Sequence record: NC_054918.1
Source of the DNA: Escherichia phage vB_EcoM_G4498
Direction: 5' to 3' (one strand)
Length of the DNA: 64,000 bases
Both the position numbers and the translations under genes were made by a program. Positions 36,662 to 64,000 of this stretch are shown here, piece after piece. The notes under the pieces are model-generated. The model had not been told where the DNA came from. It saw only the letters and a program-made list of their open reading frames with translations, and made no database searches. Positions within the stretch are counted from its first letter, which is position 1; every line of letters starts with the position of its first letter.

Positions 36662-37225
36662 TTATTTACATAGTTTAGTTATTATAGCTTCTGCAGCAGC
36701 TTTTAGCTTAGATGCGGTGTTAATACGATTTTTAATTTCAGTATATGCATCGCCAAGAACATCAAGGCTATCAGAATAAACACTTACACTATTGCGTTCG
36801 CTATTTGAAATAGAACCTTTAGTTTTACGATCAAAATCGGTATACACGTCTTGAAGATCGCGGGCTGCCTTCTTTGCATCATCCAATGCATCAAGAGCTT
36901 TATTCAAAGCATTGACATATTTTTTAGTGTCAAACATATTCTTAGAAATTTTAACAGGTGCACGTTCAGGAGTAGCTAATGCAGATTTAGAAACCTGAGC
37001 GCCAGATGCCAATTTCTTAGAAATTTTGAAAAATGCTTTATTGAAACTATTTTCTTGGCTCATCGTAAAAGAACTGTTATCGATGTTATACATTTCAATA
37101 GCTTTAGCTTTCCACTTAAGAAAATCGCCCCGGTCTTTTGGGTCCAAGTGGAAGAATACTTTAGTAAGATCTGCTTCAGATGGTAATTTTGCTGCTTCAG
37201 TTAAAAATTCGGCATAGGTTTTCAT
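36662..37225 (-). CDS. internal-protein-like protein with capsid-targeting leader (187 aa)
   Basis: N-terminus MKTYAEFLTEAA; AAGGA SD. Confidence 0.6.
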   Translation of the reverse strand: MKTYAEFLTEAAKLPSEADLTKVFFHLDPKDRGDFLKWKAKAIEMYNIDNSSFTMSQENSFNKAFFKISKKLASGAQVSKSALATPERAPVKISKNMFDTKKYVNALNKALDALDDAKKAARDLQDVYTDFDRKTKGSISNSERNSVSVYSDSLDVLGDAYTEIKNRINTASKLKAAAEAIITKLCK

Positions 37226-37294
37226 TTAAAATCCTTGAAATAATTTATTGGTTATTAATTATTTATTATCCGTAACAGCATTCTCTGAGTGATT

Positions 37295-37327
37295 CAAACT
37301 AAAAAGCCCCAACCTTTCGGTCAGGGC
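37295..37327 (-). terminator. rho-independent terminator ending the tRNA/stable-RNA transcription unit
   Basis: minus-strand GCCCUGACC-gaaa-GGUUGGGGC followed by UUUUUAGUUUG. Confidence 0.65.
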
Positions 37328-37380
37328 TAAGCCTTGCGGCAACCTTGTCGGGGTTCCACCTGCTAAGGCAAGTGTTTGTA

Positions 37381-37546
37381 CGAAACGCCGGGATTTGAAC
37401 CCGGTTATTAAGTAGTTGACGCTACTCAATATTTTTAAAAGGCCATATCTCGACCATATCCGAACGTTCCGTCAAAAACGCTACTCGGCTTATGGCAAAG
37501 ATATTTCCTCGAATCGATAATTCGGTGCGCCGTTTCTGCTGTAATA
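37381..37546 (-). ncRNA. candidate tRNA-like stable RNA (cf. T4 species 1/2 RNAs)
   Basis: non-coding stretch; minus-strand T-arm-like CCGGGTTCAAATCCCGG followed by CGTTTCG that can pair with GAAACG about 160 nt upstream; boundaries uncertain. Confidence 0.35.
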
Positions 37547-37635
37547 GTAAAGAGCCAGAACACAGTAAAACTGTGGGAGGAAACTATACTCCAGGGAACA
37601 TCAGTCCGACGACTTACCGGTAGCGACCCGGTTTC

Positions 37636-37986
37636 TTAATATTCTTTTAAAGCATCAATCTGTTCACGGCGTTTACGCCATAAATCAATTGCTTCATACG
37701 CGGATTCAGCATTTCGAATTAGCCGGCATTTATGTAAAGACTTATGATTTTGATATTGCGTAAATAACGAAATTTTATCTAAAAGGTCTTTACGATCAAA
37801 ATATTCGTAACCATCTAAACCAAATGAACGATTTTTGAGAAATTGCCAATGACCATATTCGTTTTCGACATAAACATAATCTGCATGCTGATAAAGTAAA
37901 TTAATTACACGTTCAGAAATAACAGTATCGTTATGATTAAAATAGAATGTTAAATCATGAACTACTAAATAGACATTACCTTTCAT
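37636..37986 (-). CDS. hypothetical protein (116 aa) between tRNA-Arg and the stable-RNA region
   Basis: GAGG SD before ATG at 37986; the longer track ORF would overlap tRNA-Arg. Confidence 0.5.
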   Translation of the reverse strand: MKGNVYLVVHDLTFYFNHNDTVISERVINLLYQHADYVYVENEYGHWQFLKNRSFGLDGYEYFDRKDLLDKISLFTQYQNHKSLHKCRLIRNAESAYEAIDLWRKRREQIDALKEY

Positions 37987-38004: not shown

Positions 38005-38081
<77 letters not shown>

Positions 38082-38085
38082 TATT

Positions 38086-38160
38086 TGGCGGACGTGATAG
38101 GATTCGAACCTATAACCAATCGCTTAACAGGCGATCGCTCTGCCATTGAGCTACACATCC
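38086..38160 (-). tRNA. tRNA-Asn: tRNA-Asn (anticodon GTT), CCA encoded
   Basis: acceptor GGATGTG/CACGTCC, anticodon stem ATCGC/GCGAT, loop CUGUUAA, T-loop GGTTCGAATCC. Confidence 0.8.
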
Positions 38161-38164
38161 AAAT

Positions 38165-38251
38165 TGGTGGGGAGCGATGGAGTCGAACCACCCGAGTCGC
38201 AATGACAATGGATTTACAGTCCACACCGCTACCTCTACGGGATAACTCCCC
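38165..38251 (-). tRNA. tRNA-Tyr: tRNA-Tyr (anticodon GTA), long variable arm, CCA encoded
   Basis: acceptor GGGGAGT/GCTCCCC, anticodon loop CUGUAAA, long variable arm as in bacterial tRNA-Tyr. Confidence 0.75.
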
Positions 38252-38260
38252 TAATTAATT

Positions 38261-38335
38261 TGGTGGCCCTGGGTGGAATTGAACCACCATCTGGCGATTA
38301 TGAGTCGCTTGCTTGAACCTTCCAGCTACAGGGCC
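38261..38335 (-). tRNA. tRNA-Ile: tRNA with anticodon CAT (T4 tRNA-Ile position; Ile2 via lysidine, or Met)
   Basis: acceptor GGCCCTG/CAGGGCC, anticodon loop CUCAUAA; directly adjacent to tRNA-Thr as in the T4 Thr-Ile precursor. Confidence 0.8.
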
Positions 38336-38336
38336 T

Positions 38337-38412
38337 TGGTGCTGATTGACGGAATCGAACCGCCGACCTTCTCATTACAAGTGAGTTGCTCTACCTACTG
38401 AGCTAAATCAGC
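38337..38412 (-). tRNA. tRNA-Thr: tRNA-Thr (anticodon TGT), CCA encoded
   Basis: acceptor GCTGATT/AATCAGC, D-stem GCTC/GAGC, anticodon loop CUUGUAA. Confidence 0.85.
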
Positions 38413-38417
38413 AAAAC

Positions 38418-38507
38418 TGGCGGAGGCGATAGGATTTGAACCTATGAGTCGCCGGAGCGACTGCCGGTTTTCAAGACCGGTGCATTAAACCACTCTGCCA
38501 CGCCTCC
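38418..38507 (-). tRNA. tRNA-Ser: tRNA-Ser (anticodon TGA), type II, CCA encoded
   Basis: acceptor GGAGGCG/CGCCTCC, anticodon stem CCGGT/ACCGG, loop CUUGAAA, long variable arm. Confidence 0.85.
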
Positions 38508-38509
38508 AG

Positions 38510-38584
38510 TCTCCGTGACAGGATTTGAACCTACGACATTCTGCTCCCAAAGCAGACGCTCTACCAAACTGAGCTACACGGAGT
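38510..38584 (-). tRNA. tRNA-Pro: tRNA-Pro (anticodon TGG), CCA not encoded
   Basis: acceptor CTCCGTG/CACGGAG, anticodon loop UUUGGGA; abuts tRNA-Ser (dimeric precursor arrangement). Confidence 0.85.
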
Positions 38585-38593
38585 AAATTAAAT

Positions 38594-38667
<74 letters not shown>

Positions 38668-38672
38668 AAATT

Positions 38673-38759
38673 TGGTGCGAGAAGTGGGACTCGAACCCAC
38701 AAGGAAATCATTCCGCAGCATTTTAAGTGCTGTGCCTTTACCAATTTGACCATTCTCGC
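38673..38759 (-). tRNA. tRNA-Leu: tRNA-Leu (anticodon TAA), type II, CCA encoded
   Basis: acceptor GCGAGAA/TTCTCGC, anticodon stem CAGCA/TGCTG, loop CUUAAAA, long variable arm. Confidence 0.85.
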
Positions 38760-38760
38760 G

Positions 38761-38833
38761 CTGGGAATAAAGGACTCGAACCTTTGCATCCTGGAATCAA
38801 AATCCAGTGCCTTACCAACTTGGCTAATTCCCA
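38761..38833 (-). tRNA. tRNA-Gln: tRNA-Gln (anticodon TTG), CCA not encoded
   Basis: acceptor TGGGAAT/ATTCCCA, anticodon loop UUUUGAU; 1 nt from tRNA-Leu (dimeric precursor arrangement). Confidence 0.85.
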
Positions 38834-38929: not shown

Positions 38930-39217
38930 TTACCATTTATGATGATACGTATTTACGATACATTCAAGACCCAAAGGATTCTTGAAAATATCATATTCAA
39001 GAGGACCTTTTTCTGTTTCAATAAAGAAATCAAAATTTACTGTATTAAATTTACGGTCTTCCTTTACTAATTTAACTTGAGAAGATGAACGATCAATGTA
39101 AACCTTTTCAACTTCAAAACACGTTAAAATGCCATAATCATCGATCAAGGCTTTAGCTGCATCTTGATCATATTTATATCCATTTTCAATGGATGATACT
39201 TTAGCATAAAGAATCAT
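38930..39217 (-). CDS. hypothetical protein (95 aa)
   Basis: ORF. Confidence 0.45.
   Translation of the reverse strand: MILYAKVSSIENGYKYDQDAAKALIDDYGILTCFEVEKVYIDRSSSQVKLVKEDRKFNTVNFDFFIETEKGPLEYDIFKNPLGLECIVNTYHHKW

Positions 39218-61710: not shown

Positions 61711-64000
<2,290 letters not shown>

What the first reader, a model, noticed from the sequence alone, without database searches (positions are those of the whole stretch)
37331..37635. About 300-nt non-coding stretch with tRNA-like T-arm and acceptor-like pairing: candidate stable RNA
Between the ORF at 37,636-37,986 and a strong terminator (37,295-37,327) lies a stretch with no ORF. On the minus strand it contains CCGGGTTCAAATCCCGG (a canonical T-stem-loop) followed by CGTTTCG, which can pair with GAAACG about 160 nt upstream. 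T4 encodes two stable tRNA-like RNAs (species 1 and 2) of unknown function in its tRNA region; this may be the counterpart, relocated downstream of tRNA-Arg.
Basis: partly seen in the sequence, partly recalled or inferred. Interest (0 to 1): 0.45.

Follow-up and report, generated by a model that had tools for sequence, protein, structure and literature searches.

The report
T-even phage stable RNAs rnaD and rnaC
This non-coding stretch holds the two small stable RNAs long known from phage T4 (species 2/rnaD and the tRNA-like species 1/rnaC) at the end of the phage's tRNA gene cluster, so the feature is real and well structured but already known, and its function is still unsolved.

Summary
On the minus strand, 37,639-37,296 holds four elements in order: rnaD (species 2 RNA, ~37,639-37,523), rnaC (species 1 RNA, 37,517-37,379), a conserved 50-nt trailer, and an intrinsic terminator. 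The order after tRNA-Arg is the same as in T4, RB3, Aplg8 and T2L, whose GenBank records annotate these RNAs. It was not relocated. The only difference from T4 is a 116-aa ORF (T2L "trna.2") between tRNA-Arg and rnaD.

rnaC is 97.8% identical to T4 rnaC. It folds far better than shuffles (z = -5). Over 19 distinct homologues from at least four genera, 98% of cells pair and 25 of 45 pairs show compensatory changes.

rnaD is not tRNA-like. It has a conserved core and a swappable middle domain.

Function is unknown in the literature I could search. Most likely both RNAs are cut out of the tRNA operon transcript by host tRNA-processing enzymes and act in trans as accessory RNAs.

Side results: two invariant, complementary loops in rnaC, and rnaD-like RNAs in tRNA clusters of unrelated phage groups.

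The parts
38005..38833 (-). Context: cluster of 10 tRNA genes (Gln, Leu, Gly, Pro, Ser, Thr, Met, Tyr, Asn, Arg) upstream in the same orientation
   Evidence: ARAGORN; Rfam RF00005
37636..37986 (-). Context: 116-aa ORF, the homologue of T2L 'trna.2', inserted between tRNA-Arg and rnaD. Its stop codon overlaps the 5' end of rnaD. Function unknown.
   Evidence: ORF list; phrog_3355, unknown function, E 5.6e-52; no Pfam hit; T2L annotation
37523..37639 (-). rnaD (species 2 RNA), T2-type variant, ~117 nt. P1 hairpin 37,632-37,616. P2 pairs CGUCG 37,611-37,607 with CGGCG 37,532-37,528. P3 pairs UGUU 37,600-37,597 with AGCA 37,540-37,537. The middle domain is variable.
   Evidence: Mapping from RB3, Aplg8 and T2L annotations; 5' 50 nt 98% and 3' 27 nt 93% identical to T4, with no similarity in the middle; P1, P2 and P3 co-vary
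37518..37522 (-). Spacer AAUUA, the 5' leader of rnaC. It is conserved as AUUAU-type leaders before the next tRNA or tRNA-like gene in other phages.
   Evidence: Alignments
37379..37517 (-). rnaC (species 1 RNA), tRNA-like, 139 nt (T2L annotation maps to 37,516-37,377). Acceptor-like helix: 37,516-37,510 with 37,387-37,381, including two conserved U.U mismatches. Long arm 37,509-37,440 with apical loop UUUGACGG at 37,476-37,469. Second hairpin ~37,430-37,407 with loop CGUCAA at 37,421-37,416. T-arm 37,404-37,388.
   Evidence: 97.8% identity to T4 rnaC; fold z = -4.97; covariation; invariant loops
37329..37378 (-). Conserved 3' trailer between rnaC and the terminator, with a predicted hairpin CACUUGC-CUUA-GCAGGUG. 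It is retained in phage VR5, which lacks rnaC.
   Evidence: Invariant across four phages in A1; fold z = -2.9 together with the terminator; VR5 comparison
37296..37328 (-). Intrinsic terminator of the tRNA/stable-RNA operon
   Evidence: Terminator scan: 10-bp stem, GAAA loop, T-run; annotated as a terminator in Aplg8 and DalCa

Best explanation
The stretch encodes the T-even phage stable RNAs rnaD (species 2) and rnaC (species 1), followed by a conserved trailer and the operon terminator. Shown here: sequence homology and synteny with the annotated T4, T2L and RB3 genes, and a strongly covariation-supported fold for rnaC. That fold is a cloverleaf-like tRNA mimic. It has a 7-bp acceptor-like helix stacked on a canonical T-arm. 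A ~70-nt arm sits where the D-arm would be, and a 10-bp hairpin sits where the anticodon arm would be. rnaD has a conserved core (P1, P2, P3). Inferred biogenesis: both RNAs are co-transcribed with the ten tRNA genes and released by the host tRNA-processing machinery. RNase P would cut at the 5' side of the rnaC acceptor helix, which also creates the rnaD 3' end for exonucleolytic trimming back to P2. tRNA 3'-end or RNase E-type cleavage would make the rnaD 5' end, and the rnaC 3' end would be trimmed. The placement of homologues fits this: they are wedged between tRNA genes within 1-7 nt. Inferred function (about 0.25 confidence): they are dispensable, host-specific accessory RNAs acting in trans. 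rnaC would act as a tRNA mimic that binds or titrates a tRNA-recognising host or phage factor, presenting its invariant loops. rnaD would act as a spacer-derived RNA whose exchangeable middle domain sets its specificity.
For: Identity. The 381-nt segment matches 810 phage records, with rnaC and rnaD annotated under the match in T4, RB3, Aplg8 and Kha5h. The T2L record shows the same layout. rnaC is 97.8% identical to T4.
Structure. rnaC MFE is -50.6 kcal/mol, z = -4.97. RNAalifold gives 45 pairs, 17 of them compensatory, over 7 sequences. On 19 distinct sequences 98.4% of cells pair, 25 of 45 pairs change on both sides, no shuffle of 500 reaches this, and slid controls give 38-47%.
Biogenesis context. 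In Erwinia phage COW86c and Salmonella phage Melville, rnaC sits between tRNA-Trp and tRNA-Gly. rnaD-like elements abut tRNA genes in every locus examined. A T4 northern blot detects RNAC, and RNAC and RNAD are classed as late RNAs (PMC9697503).
Pointers to a trans function. The single-stranded loops UUUGACG and CGUCAA, the AAAAU linker and the GUACAA trailer are invariant across genera. rnaC is cleanly absent from phage VR5. A convergent SNP arose in rnaD when a T4-like phage adapted to E. coli ECOR34 (PMC12685909).
Against: No expression or processing data exist for this particular phage. RNase P dependence and dispensability rest on my recollection of the 1970s-80s T4 literature, which I could not retrieve. 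Reviews state that the biological roles are unknown (PMC3014915; PMC9697503). rnaD alone does not fold better than shuffles (z = -0.5). The invariant loops do not vary, so they give no covariation test. The alignment used was fitted to the model, which favours the structure. No binding partner or target is identified.
Confidence: 0.88

Rival explanations
1. The two RNAs are only cis-acting by-products. They would be structured spacer and terminal modules that organise or protect the polycistronic tRNA precursor (an RNase P/RNase E entry site, a 3'-exonuclease block) and have no trans function once released.
For: They lie at the 3' end of the tRNA operon, just before the terminator. rnaD-like elements always sit as spacers abutting tRNA genes. 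No role has been found in 50 years.
Against: In other genera rnaC is internal to the cluster, not terminal. VR5 keeps its tRNAs, rnaD and terminator without rnaC. Invariant loops and covarying arms go well beyond what RNase P recognition needs. The RNAs accumulate as discrete stable species late in infection.
Confidence: 0.25
2. rnaD and/or rnaC act by base pairing, as antisense or sponge RNAs like the E. coli 3'ETS-leuZ spacer-derived sponge. The conserved loops or the exchangeable rnaD cassette would pair with host or phage RNAs.
For: The rnaD middle domain is a swappable cassette with conserved C-rich loops (YCCCUCA, UCCUCCC) shared across phage families. A host-adaptation SNP, by my coordinate estimate, falls in this middle region. 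The precedent of tRNA-spacer sponges is from my own knowledge.
Against: No target was identified. E. coli genomes show no similarity to the locus, although that search does not test short antisense matches. The two invariant rnaC loops are complementary to each other, which points to an internal or dimer contact rather than an external target.
Confidence: 0.15
3. The region encodes small proteins; some GenBank records annotate 42-50 aa 'hypothetical proteins' over it.
For: Short ORFs exist: 56 aa at 37,259-37,429, 42 aa at 37,435-37,563, plus two on the plus strand. Record PQ306573 annotates CDSs across rnaD and rnaC.
Against: The ORFs are short, lie in different frames, and one runs through the terminator. 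Variation follows base-pairing rules, with 25 compensatory pairs. T4, T2L and RB3 curators annotate ncRNAs. A stable RNA is detected by northern blot in T4.
Confidence: 0.02
4. rnaC is a decaying tRNA pseudogene and rnaD is junk spacer.
For: There is a weak partial tRNA model match of 13.9 bits. One record labels it 'tRNA-OTHER' (H24).
Against: Sequence and structure are conserved across Tequatrovirus, Dhakavirus, Karamvirus, Gelderlandvirus and an Erwinia phage, with compensatory changes in the non-tRNA arms. The rnaD core is conserved across unrelated phage groups.
Confidence: 0.03

Closest known systems
Bacteriophage T4 rnaC (species 1 RNA)
   Same: 97.8% identical over 139 nt. Same position after rnaD and before the terminator. 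Same T-arm, acceptor-like helix, long arm and second hairpin.
   Different: Three substitutions, including G to A in the T-loop (UUCAAAU instead of UUCGAAU). Not annotated in the closest GenBank record, HY03.
Bacteriophage T4/T2L rnaD (species 2 RNA)
   Same: The 5' ~50 nt and 3' ~27 nt match T4. The whole RNA matches the T2L 'species II RNA' annotated in AJ880101. Same position after tRNA-Arg.
   Different: The middle ~50 nt are unrelated to T4's and instead resemble the element in Phapecoctavirus 536P1 and Certrevirus PBES02. An ORF separates it from tRNA-Arg.
Canonical tRNA and tRNA-like RNase P substrates (tmRNA tRNA-like domain, mascRNA, bacterial Y RNA YrlA)
   Same: A 7-bp acceptor helix is directly continuous with a 5-bp T-stem and a UUCRAAU loop. 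The element is embedded among tRNA genes, so it is probably matured by the same enzymes.
   Different: No anticodon arm with a 7-nt loop, no normal D-arm, no encoded CCA (the 3' end reads GUACAAA), and two conserved U.U mismatches in the acceptor. It scores below the Rfam tRNA threshold, and ARAGORN finds neither a tRNA nor a tmRNA.
Spacer- or trailer-derived RNAs of bacterial tRNA operons (E. coli 3'ETS-leuZ sponge, RtT RNA of tyrT); comparison from my own knowledge
   Same: Stable small RNAs are released as side products of tRNA operon processing. rnaD-like elements are wedged between tRNA genes.
   Different: No sequence similarity and no Rfam hit. No sRNA target is known. rnaD has a conserved structured core across phage families.

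Membership tests
T4 rnaC (species 1 RNA) | Sequence homology to T4 rnaC over its full length | tested here: met
   139/139 nt aligned, 97.8% identity; covariance model score 172.7 bits
T4 rnaC (species 1 RNA) | Position in the tRNA region: after tRNA-Arg and rnaD, before the operon terminator | tested here: met
T4 rnaC (species 1 RNA) | tRNA-like fold (T-arm plus acceptor-like helix) conserved in homologues | tested here: met
   98.4% of cells paired, 25/45 compensatory pairs
T4 rnaC (species 1 RNA) | Accumulates as a stable ~140-nt RNA in infected cells, matured by RNase P | not testable with these tools
   Northern blot shown for T4 only (PMC9697503); RNase P dependence is from memory of older literature
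T4/T2L rnaD (species 2 RNA) | Homology of the 5' and 3' ends to T4 rnaD (the criterion used in the T2L record) | tested here: met
   5' 50 nt 98%, 3' 27 nt 93%; T2L annotation note
T4/T2L rnaD (species 2 RNA) | Full-length similarity to T4 rnaD | tested here: not met
   The middle ~50 nt are not alignable to T4. This is the T2-type variant, which is full-length similar to T2L
Canonical tRNA (Rfam RF00005) | Score at or above the gathering threshold; cloverleaf with anticodon arm | tested here: not met
   13.9 bits against 29, T-arm and acceptor only; ARAGORN finds nothing
tmRNA | tRNA-like domain plus tag reading frame and pseudoknots | tested here: not met
   ARAGORN tmRNA search negative; no Rfam tmRNA hit at E <= 10
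Self-cleaving ribozymes (hammerhead, HDV-like and others), considered for rnaD | Match to an Rfam ribozyme model; complete catalytic core | tested here: not met
   No Rfam hit at E <= 10. By inspection, CUGA...GAAA flanks a two-way internal loop. The hammerhead NGA is replaced by a covarying helix (UG/CA switching to AG/CU), and the loop is not conserved in Karamvirus or Jiaodavirus

The most novel reading that the evidence does not exclude
rnaD may belong to a so far undescribed, horizontally exchanged family of structured RNAs. They would be matured by 'tRNA punctuation' in the tRNA clusters of unrelated large enterobacterial phages (Straboviridae, Vequintavirinae, Stephanstirmvirinae), and their swappable middle domain would set specificity. 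rnaC may be a closed tRNA mimic locked by a six-base-pair loop-loop contact. Both would then be RNA-based host-range or counter-defence factors rather than processing debris.
Probability: 0.2. Interest if true: 0.6.

Novelty: already known. Interest (0 to 1): 0.25.

Why it matters
The finding itself is a correct re-discovery of the T4 species 1 and species 2 RNAs. These were sequenced in the 1970s and are annotated in T4, T2L and RB3, so it adds no new kind of element. It matters in two smaller ways. First, these RNAs are missing or mis-annotated as proteins in many phage records, including the closest relative HY03, and no Rfam family covers them. Second, their function is a 50-year-old open question. 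The comparative results here give concrete, testable handles on it: the covariation-backed rnaC fold, the invariant complementary loops, the modular rnaD found in several phage families, and natural rnaC-minus phages.

Tried and rejected
1. It does not co-vary and is absent where rnaC follows a tRNA.

2. Reading rnaD as a ribozyme or motif was rejected by inspection, and no Rfam model matches.
 - Hammerhead (CUGAUG...GAAAC): the core is incomplete, and the 'UG' pairs with 'CA' and co-varies.
 - k-turn, hairpin-ribozyme loop A and HDV-like topologies: these do not fit the helices.

3. Search for a host origin: blastn of the locus against 5,426 complete E. coli genomes gave no match.

It is uninformative.

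5. The first broad IMG/VR patterns were mostly chance matches and were filtered by covariance model or by script.

6. A second T-loop-like 11-mer at 63,934-63,944 has no stem and no Rfam hit. It is a chance match inside coding DNA.

7. No sigma-70-like promoter excess and no TATAAATA box lies between tRNA-Arg and rnaD. The nearest late-promoter-like box is at 39,178-39,171.

8. I first took the window to be phage HY03, from a 100% match of 381 nt. HY03 has no tRNA genes next to this segment, and the best 4-kb match is only 96% (Shfl2). The window is therefore another mosaic Tequatrovirus.

9. Literature searches found only three held papers that mention both rnaC and rnaD. None assigns a function.

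Full report
**What is in the sequence**

Read on the minus strand, the region downstream of ten tRNA genes (38,833-38,005; Gln, Leu, Gly, Pro, Ser, Thr, Met, Tyr, Asn, Arg) contains the following, in order.
- A 116-aa ORF at 37,986-37,636.
- About 305 nt without any ORF of 60 aa or more.
- A clear intrinsic terminator at 37,328-37,305 followed by a T-run.

The T-loop 11-mer GGTTCRAWTCC occurs 7 times in the window against 0.09 expected. Five of the sites are in the tRNA genes, one is this site, and one at 63,934 is a stem-less chance match. ARAGORN predicts no tRNA or tmRNA in the stretch. Rfam's tRNA model matches only the T-arm plus acceptor, at 13.9 bits against a threshold of 29, and no other family gives a credible match at E <= 10.

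**Identity**

A blastn search of 37,660-37,280 against 50,697 phage records hits 810 records, almost all T4-like. It is 100% identical to Escherichia phage HY03 and 98.3% to T2. The features under the match are annotated 'rnaC' and 'rnaD' in T4, RB3, Aplg8 and Kha5h.

The annotated loci show the order tRNA-Arg, rnaD (species 2 RNA), rnaC (species 1 RNA), terminator. A four-way alignment transfers the coordinates.
- rnaD is roughly 37,639-37,523.
- rnaC is 37,517-37,379.
- The terminator is 37,327-37,296.

rnaC is 97.8% identical to T4 rnaC over all 139 nt. rnaD matches T4 only at its 5' 50 nt (98%) and its 3' 27 nt (93%).

The T2L tRNA-region record AJ880101 (Brok-Volchanskaya et al. 2008, PMC2330249) annotates exactly the layout seen here: tRNA-Arg, 'trna.2' CDS, rnaD and rnaC. 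Its rnaD note reads 'putative; predicted by 5'- and 3'-end homology with T4 species II RNA'.

The RNAs are not relocated, because in T4 they also follow tRNA-Arg directly. The difference is the inserted ORF (phrog_3355, unknown function, no Pfam domain), whose stop codon overlaps the rnaD 5' end.

The window is not HY03 itself. HY03 has no tRNA genes next to this segment, and the best 4-kb match is 96% to Shigella phage Shfl2. HY03 leaves the two RNAs unannotated. Some records place small 'hypothetical protein' CDSs over them.

**Structure of rnaC**

The 139-nt RNA folds to -50.6 kcal/mol against -32.0 +/- 3.8 for shuffles (z = -4.97). Homologues were collected from three sources.
- Tequatrovirus and Dhakavirus (FB).
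- Karamvirus (myPSH1140, UFV01), an Erwinia phage (COW86c) and Gelderlandvirus (Melville).
- IMG/VR contigs.

RNAalifold on seven sequences gives 45 pairs, 17 of them with compensatory changes. On 22 sequences (19 distinct) aligned to a covariance model, the counts are as follows.
- 98.4% of cells form standard pairs.
- 25 of 45 pairs change on both sides.
- None of 500 shuffles reaches this level.
- Sliding the 3' partner by 1-3 columns drops pairing to 38-47%.

One caveat applies: that alignment was fitted to the model, which favours the structure.

The fold is a cloverleaf-like tRNA mimic with four parts.
- A 7-bp acceptor-like helix, CGAUUCG (37,516-37,510) with CGUUUCG (37,387-37,381). 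It has two conserved U.U mismatches, and one A-U pair switches to G-C in 8 of 19 sequences.
- A ~70-nt arm closed by AGG/CCU in the place of the D-arm. It has an invariant AUGG just before the closing strand, which may be a G18-G19 analogue (my inference).
- A 10-bp hairpin in the place of the anticodon arm, with a 6-nt loop.
- A canonical T-arm whose third pair switches from G-C to U-A.

It does not co-vary: FB has UAAACG with CGUAUCG. It does not exist where rnaC follows tRNA-Trp (COW86c, Melville).

**A new detail in rnaC**

The apical loop of the long arm (UUUGACGG, 37,476-37,469) and the loop of the second hairpin (CGUCAA, 37,421-37,416) are invariant in all 19 distinct sequences. They are perfectly complementary over six bases, with a duplex energy of -6.9 kcal/mol. 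Random loops of these sizes and this composition give a match this long in 0.3% of trials. This suggests a loop-loop (kissing) contact, within one molecule or between two. Because neither loop varies, there is no covariation proof. The linker AAAAU and the 3' trailer GUACAA(A) are also invariant.

**Structure and distribution of rnaD**

On its own the window's rnaD does not fold better than shuffles (z = -0.5). Comparison nevertheless shows a conserved core, listed 5' to 3'.
- A 5' hairpin P1 (CCGGG/CCGG here, CAGGG/CCCUG in 536P1, UCGGG/CCCGA in W70).
- The sequence AAG, then the P2 5' strand UCGUCS.
- An internal loop, then P3.
- An invariant CCCUG.
- A variable domain.
- The sequence CAC, then the 3' strand of P3.
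- The P2 3' strand SGGCG.

Over 19 sequences the P2 closing pair is G-C in 9 and C-G in 10. P3 shows UA/AU, UG/CG/GC and UA/CG exchanges. RNAalifold on seven members with one type of middle domain gives 21 pairs, 11 of them compensatory, including a distal hairpin with a conserved YCCCUCA loop.

The same core occurs outside the T4-like phages.
- Vequintavirinae: W70/A73 and Certrevirus PBES02.
- Stephanstirmvirinae: Phapecoctavirus 536P1. The unclassified PsgM04F carries a near-identical (98.8%) element.
- Within the T4-like phages, but in other genera: Karamvirus and Jiaodavirus.
- IMG/VR contigs of 142-178 kb.

In every case the element is wedged between tRNA genes. Its 3' end lies 1-7 nt before the next tRNA or tRNA-like gene. 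Only tRNA models match in those loci at Rfam's thresholds.

The middle domain behaves as a swappable cassette. The window's T2-type cassette (…UCCUCCCACAGUUUUACUGUGUUCUGG…) is shared with 536P1 and PBES02, and another type is shared by W70, Karamvirus and Jiaodavirus.

I considered hammerhead, k-turn, hairpin-ribozyme and HDV-like readings of the CUGA…GAAA internal loop and rejected them. The 'UG' after CUGA pairs with, and co-varies with, the 'CA' before GAAA. The loop is not conserved across the family, and no Rfam ribozyme model matches.

**Surroundings**

The 50 nt between rnaC and the terminator are invariant among T4, RB3, Aplg8 and the window. They fold into a small hairpin. Dhakavirus VR5 keeps them although it lacks rnaC through a clean excision at the GAA/AAA boundaries. 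DalCa-type phages carry an extra 157-aa ORF and a duplicated terminator after the trailer. The locus is thus a hot spot for insertions and losses, like T4's segB nearby. A late-promoter-like TATAAATA lies at 39,178-39,171, upstream of tRNA-Gln, and none lies between tRNA-Arg and rnaD. E. coli genomes contain nothing similar to the locus.

**How it most likely works**

Shown here: identity, fold and genomic placement.

Inferred biogenesis: the RNAs are transcribed with the tRNA genes as far as the terminator and are cut out by host tRNA-processing enzymes. The acceptor plus T-arm minihelix of rnaC is the standard RNase P recognition unit. The leader AUUAU places a U just before the helix. The 3' end reads GUACA instead of NCCA, as in T4 tRNA precursors that lack an encoded CCA (PMC11143913). 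RNase P cleavage at rnaC would also release the rnaD 3' end, which would then be trimmed back to P2.

In T4, RNAC is detected by northern blot, and RNAC and RNAD are classed as late RNAs 'of yet unknown functions' (PMC9697503). A 2010 review likewise says their roles are unknown (PMC3014915). My searches of the held library found no paper assigning a function.

Three observations point the same way. Single-stranded loops are invariant. Some phages have lost rnaC naturally. A convergent SNP arose in rnaD when a T4-like phage adapted to E. coli ECOR34 (PMC12685909); by my estimate from the coordinates quoted in that paper, the SNP falls in the middle region. On this basis I think the most likely function is a dispensable, host-specific trans-acting role. 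rnaC would be a tRNA mimic that binds or titrates a tRNA-recognising factor, and rnaD would be a spacer-derived RNA whose cassette sets specificity. I put this at about 0.25. The main rival is a purely cis role in precursor processing or stability (also about 0.25). A base-pairing or sponge role follows (0.15). Coding and pseudogene readings are very unlikely.

**Verdict**

The feature is real, correctly guessed and already known: T-even species 1 and 2 RNAs, in the T2-type arrangement already deposited as AJ880101. Novelty: already known. Interest is low to moderate. The added value lies in the corrected acceptor pairing, the covariation-backed model, the complementary invariant loops, and the observation that rnaD-like RNAs occur in the tRNA clusters of several unrelated phage groups and lack an Rfam family.

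Noticed in passing
window 37,523-37,639 (-); loci L004 1496-1614, L005 1489-1593, L014 974-1091, L015 977-1081, L016 974-1078, L017 1017-1135, L066, L069, L109, L111, L119, L130, L144, L250, L251: RNAs with the rnaD core also occur outside T4-like phages, in Vequintavirinae and Stephanstirmvirinae, and in Karamvirus, Jiaodavirus and 142-178 kb IMG/VR contigs. The core is a P1 hairpin, UCGUCS/SGGCG, a covarying P3 and an invariant CCCUG. Each copy is wedged between tRNA genes. No Rfam family matches them, and none of the held papers I searched mentions them.
   Followed up: partly
window ~37,590-37,545 (-), the middle of rnaD: The middle domain of rnaD is a swappable cassette. The window's T2-type version (UCCUCCCACAGUUUUACUGUGUUCUGG) is unrelated to T4's but is shared with Phapecoctavirus 536P1 and Certrevirus PBES02. 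Other types are shared between W70, Karamvirus and Jiaodavirus. C-rich loops (YCCCUCA, CCUCC) recur.
   Followed up: partly
window 37,476-37,469 and 37,421-37,416 (-): Two rnaC hairpin loops, UUUGACGG and CGUCAA, are invariant in 19 distinct homologues and perfectly complementary over 6 nt (chance about 0.003). This is a candidate kissing-loop contact. Covariation cannot test it because neither loop varies.
   Followed up: partly
window 37,329-37,378 (-); L010 1320-1400; L249 885-1540: The 50-nt trailer after rnaC is as conserved as the RNAs. It is retained in phage VR5, which has lost rnaC by a clean excision. DalCa-type phages have an extra 157-aa ORF and a duplicated terminator inserted after it.
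   Followed up: partly
window 37,636-37,986 (-): A 116-aa ORF (T2L trna.2, phrog_3355, no Pfam domain) is inserted between tRNA-Arg and rnaD. Its stop codon overlaps the rnaD 5' end, so the rnaD 5' end cannot come from tRNA-Arg 3' processing as it may in T4.
   Followed up: partly
L372 (HY03 KR269718 54,309-57,289); L373 (PQ306573): HY03 is 100% identical over the 381-nt RNA segment. It leaves rnaD and rnaC unannotated and has no tRNA genes beside them; a 214-aa ORF on the other strand lies there instead. The window is therefore a different mosaic relative. Other records annotate 42-50 aa 'hypothetical proteins' over the two RNAs.
   Followed up: partly
window 63,934-63,944 (-): GGTTCAAATCC, a T-loop-like 11-mer, occurs with no flanking stem and no Rfam match. 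It is a chance occurrence inside coding sequence.
   Followed up: yes
window 39,171-39,178 (-): TATAAATA, a T4 late-promoter-like box, lies about 340 nt upstream of the first tRNA gene (tRNA-Gln). It is a possible late promoter for the whole tRNA/rnaD/rnaC operon. The box count in the window is not above chance.
   Followed up: no
window 36,662-37,225 (-): The 187-aa ORF downstream of the terminator belongs to phrog_2280 (unknown function). It has only a sub-threshold Cytochrome b562-like Pfam hit (17.5 bits against a 30-bit cut-off). It differs from T4's e.8 at this position.
   Followed up: no
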